Shown here: in pieces, positions 8,643 through 13,792 of the stretch
Numbering within the stretch: position 1 is the stretch's first letter
Layout: each line of letters begins with the position of its first letter
NCBI GenBank assembly: GCA_030840525.1
Contig: JAVEEI010000012.1
Location: 1 to 56,407, forward strand
Direction: 5' to 3'
Length of the DNA: 56,407 bases
Source of the DNA: Frankiaceae bacterium
GTDB taxonomy: Bacteria; Actinomycetota; Actinomycetes; JAFAQI01
Notes under the pieces: model-generated
Database searches by the model: none
What the model saw: the letters and a program-made list of their open reading frames with translations, nothing else
What the model was told of the DNA's origin: nothing
Program-made: the position numbers and the translations under genes

Positions 8643-8703
8643 GTTGAGTGTGACGTTCCTCGTCTTCTCAGCCGCTGAGAAGACGAGGTTCGTCACACTC
8701 AAC
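8643..8703. repeat. Near-perfect 61-bp palindrome between convergent genes (REP-like element or bidirectional terminator)
   Basis: GTTGAGTGTGACG-TT-CCTCGTCTTCTCAGC-C-GCTGAGAAGACGAGG-TT-CGTCACACTCAAC. Confidence 0.85.
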
Positions 8704-11267: not shown

Positions 11268-12194
11268 ATGAGCTTCCGGGACGAGCCTGCGACAGCGGCC
11301 GGTGTGGCGACGTACGCCGACGACGGGCGCGTGCTCGACGCGTGGTTTCCGACGCCGGTGCTCGGGGCCGCCGATGCGGTTGCTCCGCTGGACCTGCCGA
11401 CCGGCGCGGACGCGTTGCGCGGCGTCCGCACCGAGGCGGTCGTCGTACGGCTCGCGTCGCTCGCGGCGCCGCCCGCCGACGCACTCGACGTCTACCTCCG
11501 GCTGCATCTGCTCTCGCACCGACTGGTCCGGCCGCACGAGGCGTCGCTCGACGGGCTGTTCGGGCTGCTGACGAACGTCGCGTGGACATCGCTCGGCCCG
11601 GTGCCGGCCGACGGCGTCGAGAGCGTGCGGCTGCGCGCGCGGGCGGCCGGGCAGCGGCTGGAGGTGTACGGCGTCGACAAGTTCCCGCGGATGACCGACT
11701 ACGTCGTCCCGTCGGGAGTCCGCATCGCCGACGCAGACCGGGTCCGGCTCGGCGCGTATCTCTCCCCGGGTACGACGGTGATGCACGAAGGGTTCGTCAA
11801 CTACAACGCCGGGACGCTGGGCGCCTCGATGGTCGAGGGACGCATCTCGGCCGGGGTCGTCATCGGCGACGGGACCGACATCGGCGGCGGCGCGTCGATC
11901 ATCGGCACGCTGTCCGGCGGTGGGTCGCTGGTGGTGTCGCTGGGCGAGCGGTGCCTGCTCGGCGCCAACAGCGGCATCGGCATCCCGCTCGGCGACGACT
12001 GCGTCGTCGAGGCGGGCTGCTACGTGACCGCGGGGTCGAAGGTGACGCTGCCGGACGGCGCGGTGGTGGCGGCTCGTGAGTTGGCCGGCTCGCACAATCT
12101 GTTGTTCTGGCGCAACAGCGTGACCGGGGCGCTGGAGGCGAAGCCTCGGACCGGCACCTGGGGCGGCCTCAACGCCGCCCTGCACGCCAACTGA
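11268..12194 (+). CDS. dapD: Tetrahydrodipicolinate N-succinyltransferase
   Basis: [42 protein letters not shown], hexapeptide repeats. Confidence 0.95.
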
Positions 12195-12201
12195 TACCGG
12201 C

Positions 12202-12252
12202 GGGGACCATCTGCTGGTCTTTCGCGCCCCGATCGACCAGCAGGATCTACCC
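12202..12252. repeat. Hairpin element, left flank of the DUF559 gene
   Basis: CTGCTGGTC (12211-12219), 15-nt loop, GACCAGCAG (12235-12243). Confidence 0.75.
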
Positions 12253-13170
12253 AGTGCGGCCGACCCGGCGGTGCGCGAGGATGTCGCCGAGCTCGCGGAC
12301 GACAAGCTCCGGCTCGGCAACGAATCGCCGATGGCTGTAGCGGACGACGAGGATCCCGCGCGCCAGCAGCGCCGCGTCGCGGCGTAGGTCCCGCTCGCGT
12401 TGCCCGCTCTGGCCATGCCACGCCGCGCCGTCGAGCTCGACGTCGACCCGCTCGTCCGGGAAGTAGCGGTCGAGAAAGACAGTGCAGGCATCGAGCGCGA
12501 CCTCATGTTGGCGAATCGAGGGAGGCAGCCGCGGATCCGAGAACACCCGCTCGTGCCCCCAGATCTCGAGCTCGCTGTGGCACCCGCCGTCGACGAGCGC
12601 GACCAGCTCGCGAATCTCCGCGGCGCCCCGGATGCACCGGTTGGCGCGCACGGTCGCGAGCAGCCGGTCGGCCGTCGTACGCCGGGCTCGCAGCGCCTCG
12701 ATCAGCGGCGCCCGGCGGTCGGCCGCGGCGAGCAGCGGCCAGCTCTCGACGACCGCCTGCTCCATCCGCACGACGCGCAGCCCGTCGCGTTTGACGACCG
12801 TAGAGGAGTTGACGCCGAACCCCCGCCGCCGATGCACGACGAGGCTGCGCCTCGAGACCGCGTGACTCGCGTGCGGCGCGGTGAGATGGATCGGTGCGGC
12901 AGCACGGAGCACCGTCGGGCACAGGCCCCAGACGTCGAGCGCGTCGACGTGCGACAGGGCCGCTGCGGGCAGGTAGGCGAGCGCGGCCCGGCGCAACAGC
13001 GGCCGGTCGAGCGGGATGCCCGCGACGACGTACACGCCGGGGTGCAGCCGCTGCAGCACTCCGGCGTTGAGCGCGTCGTCGAGCACGTGCCGCGGCCAGC
13101 GGGCGAGCGCGTGCGCGCGAGTGACGAGCCCGCCGTCAGCCAGAGCCAGGGCAACGAGGTCGCGGCGCAT
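12247..13170 (-). CDS. AbiEi-like N-terminus plus DUF559 (Vsr-like) endonuclease domain protein
   Basis: GLVTRA..LHPGVY, AALSH, SELE, VDVELDGAAWH, RERDLRRDAALLARGILVVR. Confidence 0.82.
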   Translation of the reverse strand: MRRDLVALALADGGLVTRAHALARWPRHVLDDALNAGVLQRLHPGVYVVAGIPLDRPLLRRAALAYLPAAALSHVDALDVWGLCPTVLRAAAPIHLTAPHASHAVSRRSLVVHRRRGFGVNSSTVVKRDGLRVVRMEQAVVESWPLLAAADRRAPLIEALRARRTTADRLLATVRANRCIRGAAEIRELVALVDGGCHSELEIWGHERVFSDPRLPPSIRQHEVALDACTVFLDRYFPDERVDVELDGAAWHGQSGQRERDLRRDAALLARGILVVRYSHRRFVAEPELVVRELGDILAHRRVGRTG

Positions 13171-13250
13171 GACGCATGGTCGAGCGGAAACGAGTTCCGC
13201 AGGTGCCAAGTCGGCGCAAATGTGGACAGGCCACTTCGCTGTGGGCAACC

Positions 13251-13313
13251 AAGCGTTGTACGTCCTGCTGGTCCGAGAGAAGCTAGGAGACCAGCACGTC
13301 GTACCCGACGCTT
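13251..13313. repeat. Hairpin element, right flank of the DUF559 gene (inverted homolog of 12202-12252)
   Basis: TGCTGGTC (13266-13273), 15-nt loop, GACCAGCA (13289-13296); outer stem AAGCGT..GTACG / CGTAC..ACGCTT. Confidence 0.75.
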
Positions 13314-13333
13314 CGAGAGGTAGGCGGGGGCCG

Positions 13334-13792
13334 ATGAAGATCGAGGCGGTGAGCGCGGCGTCGGTCGAGGCTCGGGTGCTCGTGGCGCTCTACGTCGACG
13401 AGATCGCCGCCGCCTTCCCGGCCGGCTTCGATCCCAAAGCCTCTGTCTCCGCCGACCCCGACGAGCTGACGCCGCCCAACGGCACGTTCCTCGTCGTGCG
13501 CGCCGACGACGGCAACCCGGTCGGCTGCGGCGCGCTCAAGCTGCTCGACCCGACGACCGCCGAGATCAAGCGCATGTGGCTCGCGCCGGAAGCTCGCGGC
13601 CAGGGCATCGGCCGCCAGCTTCTCGAGGCGCTGGAGCAGGCCGGCCGCGACCTCGGCGCGACCGAGGCCCGGCTCGACACCAACGAAGCGCTCGACGCCG
13701 CGATGACGCTCTACCGCAAGTCCGGCTGGAGCGAGATCCCCGCGTACAACGACAACGTCTACGCGACGCACTGGTTCGCGAAGCAGCTGTAA
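13334..13792 (+). CDS. GNAT family N-acetyltransferase
   Basis: VGCGALK, AEIKRMW, ARGQGIG, LYRKSGW. Confidence 0.88.
   Translation: MKIEAVSAASVEARVLVALYVDEIAAAFPAGFDPKASVSADPDELTPPNGTFLVVRADDGNPVGCGALKLLDPTTAEIKRMWLAPEARGQGIGRQLLEALEQAGRDLGATEARLDTNEALDAAMTLYRKSGWSEIPAYNDNVYATHWFAKQL

What the first reader, a model, noticed from the sequence alone, without database searches (positions are those of the whole stretch)
12202..13313. DUF559 nuclease gene bracketed by inverted, homologous hairpin ends: candidate transposase-less mobile cassette
Seen: both flanks carry TGCTGGTC-N15-GACCAGCA with identical loop length but unrelated loop sequence. The left end read on minus (GTAGATCCTGCTGGTC-N15-GACCAGCAGATGGTCCCC) aligns with the right end read on plus (GTACGTCCTGCTGGTC-N15-GACCAGCACGTCGTACCC). 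The gene's stop codon lies inside the left element, which begins 7 bp after the dapD stop. Established: DUF559 is a Vsr-like PD-(D/E)xK nuclease fold and AbiEi-like domains bind DNA. Inference: the protein recognises these fixed-geometry ends and spreads the unit, analogous to REP/RAYT or IS200/605 ends but with a different enzyme. No AbiEii toxin is adjacent, so a toxin-antitoxin reading fits poorly.
Basis: partly seen in the sequence, partly recalled or inferred. Interest (0 to 1): 0.78.

Follow-up and report, generated by a model that had tools for sequence, protein, structure and literature searches.

The report
Nuclease gene bracketed by its palindromes
A gene for a DNA-binding nuclease sits between two copies of a 50-base palindrome that otherwise occurs only in genomes carrying that gene, an arrangement that recalls REP repeats and their RAYT gene but uses an unrelated enzyme.

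Summary
TGCTGGTC-N15-GACCAGCA occurs twice in the window, at 12212-12242 and 13266-13296 (0 of 100 shuffles gave two). The two copies bracket a 307-aa gene whose product has an AbiEi-like N-terminal part and a Vsr/DUF559-type nuclease domain. The stop codon lies inside the left palindrome.

The palindrome is not a generic terminator. In 36 genomes of the family it occurs only in this genome (2 flanking, 3 solo) and one congener with the orthologous gene (2 flanking, 5 solo). A second congener has neither the gene nor any intact copy, only one decayed copy at an orthologous site. Other DUF559 genes in this genome carry their own palindrome families, one with at least 26 copies.

The gene does not appear to hop. 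Relatives cluster by chromosomal site, each lineage has one copy per genome, and dN/dS is 0.14-0.28. At two sites the gene is inverted in some genera.

The best reading is a REP/RAYT-like partnership between a gene and its repeats, not a self-transposing cassette. Binding and cutting are inferred, not shown.

This scan has reported the same unit at least eight times on other DNA. I found no paper that describes it.

The parts
12202..12252 (.). Stop-side copy of the type-A palindrome (core TGCTGGTC-N15-GACCAGCA at 12212-12242). It starts 7 bp after the dapD stop and contains the nuclease gene's stop codon (12247-12249).
12247..13170 (-). Gene for a 307-aa protein. Residues 2-171 are AbiEi-like (winged helix plus AbiEi C-terminal domain). 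Residues from about 200 to 300 form a Vsr/DUF559-type PD-(D/E)xK nuclease domain with conserved acidic and histidine residues.
   Evidence: Pfam; PADLOC AbiEi E 7e-14; model pLDDT 88.9; Foldseek 6y8q, 1zel, 3r3p, 3hrl; invariant columns; dN/dS 0.28 against the G002 orthologue
13220..13228 (-). Upstream box TGTCCACAT, 50-58 nt before the ATG. It is this gene's version of a GTCCACAG box found at that position in most homologues. It resembles a DnaA box (a resemblance recalled from memory).
13256..13306 (.). Promoter-side copy of the type-A palindrome (core at 13266-13296). It lies 86-136 nt upstream of the ATG, in the divergent spacer shared with the GNAT gene.
11271..12194 (+). Left neighbour: dapD (tetrahydrodipicolinate N-succinyltransferase). 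It marks the conserved chromosomal site.
   Evidence: Pfam THDPS_M and Hexapep_2; synteny
13334..13792 (+). Right neighbour: a GNAT-type acetyltransferase. In 8 relatives without the nuclease gene it lies directly beside dapD, so it is not a partner of the nuclease gene.

Best explanation
This is one unit of an actinobacterial gene-plus-repeat partnership. A single-copy, chromosomally anchored gene encodes an AbiEi-type sequence-specific DNA-binding module fused to a Vsr/DUF559-type nuclease. The gene is bracketed by two copies of its own palindrome of about 50 bp, and further solo copies lie in intergenic DNA.

Shown here: the bracket; strict co-occurrence of the palindrome family with the cognate gene; gain and loss of solo copies between congeners; decay of a solo copy in the gene-less congener; the gene's fidelity to its site, with purifying selection; and a conserved nuclease motif.

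Inferred: the AbiEi part reads the palindrome arms, which would explain why arm sequence changes with protein lineage while spacing is kept. The nuclease nicks or cuts at the palindrome, either as an extruded hairpin or cruciform or as duplex DNA. Repair then copies, maintains or homogenises the palindromes. Recombination between the two flanking palindromes inverts or deletes the gene. The promoter-side copy probably also acts as an operator for autoregulation, as AbiEi does at inverted repeats, next to a DnaA-box-like GTCCACAG motif.

In behaviour this parallels REP/REPIN repeats and their RAYT gene. In enzyme it is unrelated.
For: Specific pairing:
- Type-A palindromes occur in 2 of 36 family genomes: G000 has 5 and G002 has 7, and these are the two genomes with the site-A gene of this clade. 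All 12 copies have a 15-nt spacer, although 13-17 was allowed.
- G001 (same genus, 93% complete) has an assembled dapD|GNAT spacer without the gene and 0 intact copies. At the site orthologous to G000:C202 and G002:C15 it has a copy with 2 mismatches in one arm. G000 and G002 keep perfect stems there although the loop and the flanks have diverged (about 80% flank identity).
- The type-B palindrome of the paralogue on C31 occurs only in G000 (4 copies) and G001 (3 copies), both of which carry that gene.
- The family-C palindrome of the C228 paralogue gives 24 arm matches in G000, 3 in G001 (orthologue 84% identical) and none in the other 34 genomes.

Dispersal:
- The G000 solos on C123 and C140 are missing from the orthologous G002 sites (113 bp against 20 bp, and 90 bp against 15 bp).
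- The G002 solos on C26 and C35 are missing from G000.
- Family C has at least 26 two-armed copies, at 66 arm sites, in G000. Family E has 61 arm sites.

Generality:
- Of 75 usable loci from Frankiaceae, Micromonosporaceae and Geodermatophilaceae, 48 have an upstream hairpin, 41 a downstream one and 30 both. The background is 7 of 700 windows.
- In 42 of 75 loci the gene's own upstream and downstream flanks share an 11-mer. Shuffled pairings gave a mean of 10.6 and a maximum of 21.

Protein:
- Foldseek matches the N-terminal part to AbiEi (6y8q, E 7e-8) and Rv2827c (1zel).
- It matches the C-terminal part to the I-Bth0305I catalytic domain and NGO0050 (TM 0.75 each, normalised to the target).
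- E202, D234, E245, D247, H252 and the QRERD motif are invariant in 12 of 12 aligned sequences.

Site fidelity: the tree clusters by site (site A 85/91, site C 92/88). dN/dS is 0.14-0.28.

From the literature: AbiEi proteins autoregulate by binding inverted repeats (PMC7319586, start of abstract seen). REPIN-RAYT systems are single-copy and mostly vertically inherited (bioRxiv 10.1101/2022.05.22.493013, start of abstract seen).
Against: - No binding, cutting or copying has been shown. Everything mechanistic is inferred from co-occurrence.
- Type A has only 3 solo copies in this genome, so for this particular gene the 'population' is very small.
- Co-occurrence could partly reflect shared ancestry. 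The genomes that carry each family are close kin, and the exact-match patterns I used would miss diverged palindromes in other genera.
- G002 is 68% complete and the whole site-B region is missing from its assembly. Its lack of types B and C therefore cannot be counted as absence.
- The only clean dissociation is G001 lacking type A, and the evidence for decay rests on one orthologous site.
- My hairpin scan found both hairpins in only 30 of 75 loci. It is ungapped and crude, and the 75 loci include close relatives.
- The dimer prediction gave no answer (listed under Tried and rejected).
- Contigs from sequencing runs showed no excised or inverted form (contigs only, so this is uninformative).
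Confidence: 0.6

Rival explanations
1. Self-mobilising, transposase-less cassette. The nuclease recognises the two hairpin ends and moves or copies the whole hairpin-gene-hairpin unit to new sites.
For: - The gene is bracketed and is cleanly absent between dapD and GNAT in 8 relatives.
- It lies in the opposite orientation at the same site in G014 and G021, and at site B in G010.
- Synonymous divergence of the gene between G000 and G002 (dS 1.0) exceeds that of dapD (0.57) and GNAT (0.41).
Against: - Proteins cluster by chromosomal site, not by genome.
- Each lineage has one copy per genome, and no two sites carry near-identical units.
- The gene-less congener keeps a decayed solo palindrome, which points to loss.
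- The inverted copies fall inside the site-A clade, so inversion in place is more parsimonious than re-insertion.
Confidence: 0.1
2. An ordinary autoregulated DNA-binding protein with a small regulon. The palindromes are duplex operators for a dimeric AbiEi-like repressor, and the nuclease-fold domain serves some unrelated function or is inactive.
For: - AbiEi family proteins bind inverted repeats to autoregulate (PMC7319586, start of abstract).
- The upstream palindrome sits at a fixed distance (-145 to -80) from the start codon.
- A fixed 15-nt spacer with free sequence suits two half-sites on duplex DNA.
Against: - The second copy overlaps the stop codon, not a promoter.
- The solo copy on C140 lies between convergent genes.
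- Sister families have at least 26 to 66 sites per genome.
- Solo sites differ between congeners.
- The nuclease motif is invariant in 12 of 12 aligned sequences.
- In family C most copies change both arms together (C/G against G/C at the variable stem position, judged by eye, not counted).
Confidence: 0.15
3. A free-standing homing endonuclease gene. The nuclease cuts the unoccupied dapD|GNAT spacer of other cells' DNA, and the gene is copied in by recombination. The palindromes are by-products.
For: - The catalytic domain matches the homing endonuclease I-Bth0305I (TM 0.75 normalised to the target).
- The gene is patchily present at one precise intergenic site across genera.
- The gene's dS exceeds that of its flanks.
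Against: - This does not explain the dispersed solo palindromes or their strict co-occurrence with the gene.
- Unoccupied spacers in relatives share no recognisable common target.
- The I-Bth0305I match is weak by E-value (0.13).
Confidence: 0.1
4. Chance or generic structure. The hairpins are ordinary transcription terminators or GC-rich palindromes with no link to the gene.
For: The left copy lies between convergent genes, where a bidirectional terminator would be expected.
Against: - 0 of 100 shuffles gave two matches.
- No T-tract terminator-like site was found.
- The right copy lies between divergent genes.
- The family is confined to genomes that carry the gene.
Confidence: 0.02

Closest known systems
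REP/REPIN repeats with their RAYT gene ('REPtron')
   Same: A single-copy, mostly vertically inherited gene is flanked by its own palindromic repeats. Further copies of the same repeat are dispersed in intergenic DNA. Repeat families are specific to gene lineages, and repeats are absent or decaying where the gene is missing.
   Different: The protein is not an HUH/Y1 IS200-IS605-type transposase. It is an AbiEi-like DNA-binding module fused to a Vsr/DUF559 PD-(D/E)xK nuclease. The host group is Actinobacteria. Each element is one long palindrome (about 50-90 bp) and not a REP doublet. Copy numbers range from 3 to a few dozen. An extra GTCCACAG box is conserved upstream of the gene.
AbiE type IV toxin-antitoxin system (AbiEi antitoxin with AbiEii toxin)
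   Same: The N-terminal 170-200 residues match AbiEi by profile (E 7e-14) and by fold (6y8q, 1zel). AbiEi binds inverted repeats near its own promoter.
   Different: There is no AbiEii nucleotidyltransferase beside the gene or anywhere in the genome. The gene is monocistronic. A nuclease domain is fused instead.
Vsr / DUF559 nucleases and the Vsr-like homing endonuclease I-Bth0305I
   Same: The C-terminal domain has this fold (3hrl and 3r3p, TM 0.75 each normalised to the target). It scores above the Pfam DUF559 cut-off and has conserved acidic and histidine residues.
   Different: Vsr repairs T/G mismatches and is a single-domain protein. I-Bth0305I lives in an intron or intein context. Neither is known (from my recollection) to be bracketed by cognate palindromes.
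IS200/IS605 elements
   Same: The ends form hairpins, not simple terminal inverted repeats.
   Different: There is no TnpA or TnpB. The gene is single-copy and faithful to its site. The same palindrome occurs at both ends and also as solo copies.

Membership tests
REP/RAYT (REPtron) | The gene encodes an HUH/Y1 transposase of the IS200/IS605 type (RAYT) | tested here: not met
   Pfam, PADLOC and fold search give AbiEi plus DUF559/Vsr-like and no Y1 transposase
REP/RAYT (REPtron) | The gene is flanked by its cognate palindromic repeats | tested here: met
   also the paralogues on C31 and C228
REP/RAYT (REPtron) | The same repeats are dispersed in intergenic DNA and are confined to genomes that carry the gene | tested here: met
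   Type A: 3 solos in G000, 5 in G002, and 0 in the other 34 of 36 genomes. Families B and C behave alike. Caveat: exact patterns were used and the carriers are close kin.
REP/RAYT (REPtron) | Single copy per genome, vertical inheritance | tested here: met
   One copy per lineage. The tree clusters by site.
REP/RAYT (REPtron) | The protein mobilises the repeats | not testable with these tools
   Only turnover of solo copies between congeners was seen
AbiE type IV toxin-antitoxin | AbiEi-type antitoxin (winged helix plus C-terminal domain) | tested here: met
   PADLOC AbiEi E 7e-14 over residues 2-171; Foldseek 6y8q E 7e-8. Pfam AbiEi_4 is below its cut-off (17.3 against 25).
AbiE type IV toxin-antitoxin | Adjacent AbiEii (DUF1814) nucleotidyltransferase toxin in a bicistronic operon | tested here: not met
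   The neighbours are dapD and a GNAT gene. PF08843 has 0 matches in the genome, which is 91% complete.
DUF559 / Vsr-like PD-(D/E)xK nuclease | Profile match above the curated cut-off, and the fold | tested here: met
   PF04480 24.6 bits against a cut-off of 20.6; 3hrl and 3r3p TM 0.75 normalised to the target
DUF559 / Vsr-like PD-(D/E)xK nuclease | Conserved active-site residues | tested here: met
   E202, D234, E245, D247 and H252 are invariant in 12 of 12 sequences. Their assignment as catalytic is by analogy.
DUF559 / Vsr-like PD-(D/E)xK nuclease | Nuclease activity | not testable with these tools
Insertion sequence / transposon | Several near-identical copies at different sites, with a transposase | tested here: not met
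   tblastn finds one paralogue at 49% identity. No transposase lies in the unit.
Intrinsic terminator | Short GC-rich stem, loop of 3-8 nt, T-tract | tested here: not met
   0 sites found. The loops are 15 nt and there is no T run.

The most novel reading that the evidence does not exclude
AbiEi-DUF559 proteins are a second, independently evolved class of repeat-partner enzymes. A PD-(D/E)xK nuclease guided by an AbiEi reader would create, maintain and disperse lineage-specific palindromic repeats across Actinobacteria, as RAYTs do for REPINs in Proteobacteria. The conserved DnaA-box-like motif would couple its expression to the replication cycle.
Probability: 0.4. Interest if true: 0.85.

Novelty: new variant of a known kind. 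Interest (0 to 1): 0.7.

Why it matters
REP/REPIN-RAYT systems are the only well-described case of short repeats that persist with a dedicated, vertically inherited partner gene inside bacterial genomes.

A second system built on an unrelated nuclease, in a different phylum, would have three consequences. It would show that this life-style evolved more than once. It would explain the origin of abundant palindromic repeats in high-GC actinobacterial genomes. It would also give a function to a large set of 'DUF559 / AbiEi-like' genes now annotated as unknown or as orphan antitoxins.

The protein-palindrome pairs change together between lineages. That makes them a natural series of sequence-specific DNA readers with known targets.

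The three congeners here carry different subsets of genes and repeat families. They offer a direct test bed for whether repeats decay once their gene is lost.

Tried and rejected
- Rfam scan of 11900-13600 at E up to 1: only two chance microRNA-family matches far below their thresholds. No known RNA family.
- Promoter and terminator consensus scan: nothing found.
- Homodimer prediction for the protein: no answer (score 0.01, mark 0.42). Not used either way.
- Sequencing runs: only assembled contigs were available. Two soil runs hold the stretch. Contigs break at the left palindrome. The single long 'joint' (11981 to 13356) has a 22-letter side in the hexapeptide-repeat part of dapD and is not credible. 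One RNA contig covers only part of the GNAT gene, at 90-95% likeness. This gives no evidence on excision, inversion or expression.
- Integron attC analogy: considered because the outer stems are conserved and the centres vary. Dropped because no integrase is nearby and the outer-motif order (GTTGT ... ACAAC) differs from what I recall of attC. It was not formally tested.
- G002 as a gene-B-less or gene-C-less control: rejected because the site-B region is absent from that 68%-complete assembly.
- GNAT neighbour as a toxin partner: rejected because it stays beside dapD in 8 relatives that lack the nuclease gene.
- Sequence search of solved structures with the alignment profile: only 3hrl, at E 0.16. 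The fold search was needed.
- Literature: 25 papers hold 'DUF559' (22 listed) and none of the listed titles concerns this arrangement. 0 papers hold both 'AbiEi' and 'DUF559'. A search combining REP, Actinobacteria, Vsr, endonuclease and flanked gave nothing relevant. Supplementary files were not consulted.

Full report
**What is in the window.** Between dapD (11271-12194, +) and a GNAT acetyltransferase gene (13334-13792, +) lies a minus-strand gene, 12247-13170, of 307 aa. It is bracketed by two imperfect palindromes of about 51 bp, at 12202-12252 and 13256-13306. Their cores are TGCTGGTC, 15 nt, GACCAGCA. These are the only two matches in 56 kb even with two mismatches allowed, and 0 of 100 shuffles gave two. 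The dapD stop precedes the left element by 7 bp, and the gene's own stop codon lies inside that element. No T-tract terminator or sigma-70 consensus site is present. Rfam gives nothing credible. Its statement that the two ends are mutually inverted has only modest support, because each end is itself a palindrome.

**The protein.** Three lines of evidence define it.
- Profiles. Pfam gives DUF559 above its cut-off (24.6 against 20.6 bits), plus MTES_1575 and AbiEi_4 below theirs. PADLOC AbiEi models match residues 2-171 at E 7e-14. NCBIfam has no model for it.
- Fold. An AlphaFold2 model built on 12 homologues has pLDDT 88.9 and pTM 0.78. Foldseek matches the N-terminal 200 residues or so to the AbiEi antitoxin of Streptococcus agalactiae (6y8q, E 7e-8) and to Rv2827c (1zel, E 1.6e-4). 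It matches the C-terminal domain to the catalytic domain of the homing endonuclease I-Bth0305I (3r3p) and to the DUF559 protein NGO0050 (3hrl), each at TM 0.75 normalised to the target.
- Conservation. In the 12-sequence alignment E202, D234, E245, D247, H252 and a QRERD motif are invariant.

No AbiEii toxin gene is adjacent or found in the 91%-complete genome. The GNAT neighbour stays next to dapD in relatives that lack the nuclease gene. A toxin-antitoxin reading therefore fails.

**The palindrome belongs to the gene.** Across 36 genomes of the same family, the type-A palindrome occurs only in this genome (G000) and in the congener G002. G000 has 5 copies: the two flanking ones and solos on C123, C140 and C202. 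G002 has 7 copies: two flanking its orthologous gene and five solos. All 12 copies have exactly 15 spacer bases, although 13-17 was allowed.

The other congener, G001 (93% complete), has an assembled dapD|GNAT spacer without the gene and no intact type-A copy. At the site orthologous to the solos on G000:C202 and G002:C15, G001 carries a copy with two mismatches in one arm. G000 and G002 keep perfect stems there although the loop and the flanks have diverged. The gene-less state of G001 is therefore best read as a loss followed by decay. This rests on a single site.

**Paralogues repeat the pattern with other palindromes.**
- The only close paralogue (49% identity), between a yebC-region gene and ruvC on C31, is flanked by direct repeats of a different 61-bp palindrome. 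That type-B palindrome occurs only in G000 (4 copies) and G001 (3 copies), both of which carry the gene.
- A Pfam search finds seven DUF559 matches in G000, five of them above the cut-off.
- The DUF559 gene on C228 is bracketed by a 61-bp family-C palindrome. Family C has at least 26 two-armed copies, at 66 arm sites, in the genome. One copy lies in this window at about 8643-8703.
- The DUF559 gene on C106 has an upstream palindrome from a family with 61 arm sites.
- An exact family-C arm pattern gives 24 matches in G000, 3 in G001 (orthologue 84% identical, with a match next to it) and none in the other 34 genomes.
- The 83-bp hairpin that fills G001's dapD|GNAT spacer belongs to yet another family. 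That family is dispersed in G001 and G002, and in G002 it brackets a further DUF559 gene.

G002 is only 68% complete and lacks the whole site-B region. Its lack of types B and C is not informative.

**Solo copies turn over; the gene does not move.** Four comparisons show solo turnover between congeners.

| Solo copy | Orthologous site in the other genome |
|---|---|
| G000:C123 | absent from G002 (113 bp against 20 bp) |
| G000:C140 | absent from G002 (90 bp against 15 bp, between convergent genes) |
| G002:C26 | absent from G000 |
| G002:C35 | absent from G000 |

Two further G002 solos fall at contig breaks or a rearrangement in G000.

The gene, by contrast, is faithful to its site. Among 18 homologues of at least 45% identity in the family, synteny defines three shared sites.
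- Site A is dapD|GNAT: G000, G002 and G013, plus G014 and G021 in the inverted orientation.
- Site B is the ruvC site: G000, G001 and G006, plus G010 in the inverted orientation.
- Site C holds five genomes of one genus.

The protein tree clusters by site (A 85/91, C 92/88; B is not resolved as a single group).

Of 20 dapD loci examined, 5 carry the gene, 8 have GNAT directly after dapD, and 7 have neither within 1.5 kb. dN/dS is 0.14-0.28 in four orthologue pairs. For G000 against G002 the gene's dS (1.0) exceeds that of dapD (0.57) and GNAT (0.41), which I cannot explain.

**Generality.** Eighty loci were fetched from named genomes of Frankiaceae and Mycobacteriales MAGs, Micromonosporaceae and Geodermatophilaceae, and 75 had enough flank to use. 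With a crude ungapped scan, 48 have a hairpin 20-260 nt upstream of the start, 41 have one around the stop, and 30 have both. The background is 7 of 700 windows elsewhere in the same loci. In 42 of 75 loci the gene's own two flanks share an 11-mer, against a mean of 10.6 (maximum 21) for shuffled pairings. The loci include close relatives, so these are not independent counts.

A further conserved feature is a GccGTCCACAGatc box about 55 nt upstream of the start codon, always in the gene's orientation. TCCACAG occurs in 64 of 76 loci against 2 of 2286 background windows. In this window the box reads TGTCCACAT, at 13220-13228. Five TCCACA boxes lie within 170 bp upstream of dnaA in this genome, against a genome-wide density of 0.145 per kb. 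This fits a DnaA-box reading, but the identification rests on my recollection of the consensus.

**Interpretation.** The evidence fits a REP/RAYT-like partnership and does not fit a self-transposing cassette. The gene is single-copy, anchored and under purifying selection. It is flanked by its own palindromes, and dispersed copies of those palindromes come and go and are confined to genomes that carry the gene.

The mechanism is inferred. I propose four steps.
1. The AbiEi module reads the arms.
2. The nuclease cuts at or near the palindrome.
3. Repair copies or homogenises the palindromes.
4. Recombination between the flanking copies inverts or deletes the gene.

The inversions seen at two sites and the loss in G001 are consistent with the last step.

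Known behaviour of the relatives supports parts of this. AbiEi proteins bind inverted repeats (PMC7319586, start of abstract seen). REPIN-RAYT systems are single-copy and mostly vertically inherited (bioRxiv 10.1101/2022.05.22.493013 and 10.1101/119735, starts of abstracts seen).

They are weighed in their own sections of this report.

**Prior knowledge.** No paper in the searched library holds both 'AbiEi' and 'DUF559'. The PD-(D/E)xK survey PMC3424549 lists DUF559 with Vsr and 3hrl/3r3p only as a clade (passages read). This scan has reported the same palindrome-bracketed AbiEi-DUF559 unit at least eight times on other genomes. I formed my reading before seeing those notes, and they agree with it.

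This window adds five things:
- a clean contrast among three congeners, including a decayed remnant;
- the tree that clusters by site;
- the inversions;
- several repeat families side by side in one genome;
- the quantified upstream box.

No claim here rests on the unpublished genome G032.

Noticed in passing
window 8643-8703: A 61-bp palindrome of a different family (family C). The family has at least 26 two-armed copies, at 66 arm sites, in this genome. Its cognate DUF559 gene lies on contig C228, bracketed by two copies.
   Followed up: yes
window 13220-13228 (-); L086-L165 about 55 nt upstream of each start codon: A conserved GccGTCCACAGatc box upstream of nearly all homologues (TCCACAG in 64 of 76 loci against 2 of 2286 background windows). 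Five similar boxes cluster upstream of dnaA (G000:C10:7871-8041). It may be a DnaA box.
   Followed up: partly
L009 (G001:C281:30850-30932): The dapD|GNAT spacer of the gene-less congener is filled by an 83-bp palindrome of yet another dispersed family. That family is present in G001 and G002, and in G002:C114 (L176:685-1593) it brackets a further DUF559 gene. The spacer after dapD seems to be a preferred place for such elements.
   Followed up: partly
window 12247-13170 compared with L028: Synonymous divergence of the nuclease gene between G000 and G002 (dS 1.0) is about twice that of the flanking dapD (0.57) and GNAT (0.41). The G000 branch is the longer one in the tree. Unexplained.
   Followed up: no
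L077/L078 (G001:C170:2094-3836): G001 has about 1.7 kb of extra DNA relative to G000:C202, just downstream of the shared solo-palindrome site. Its content was not examined.
   Followed up: no
L029 (G046:C54): The coding flanks upstream and downstream of this homologue resemble each other (tblastx). The gene may sit between paralogous genes or within a duplication.
   Followed up: no
G000 contig ends C13/C180 compared with L061: The site orthologous to one G002 solo palindrome falls at contig ends in G000. Palindromic repeats may be breaking this assembly, so copy counts are lower bounds.
   Followed up: no
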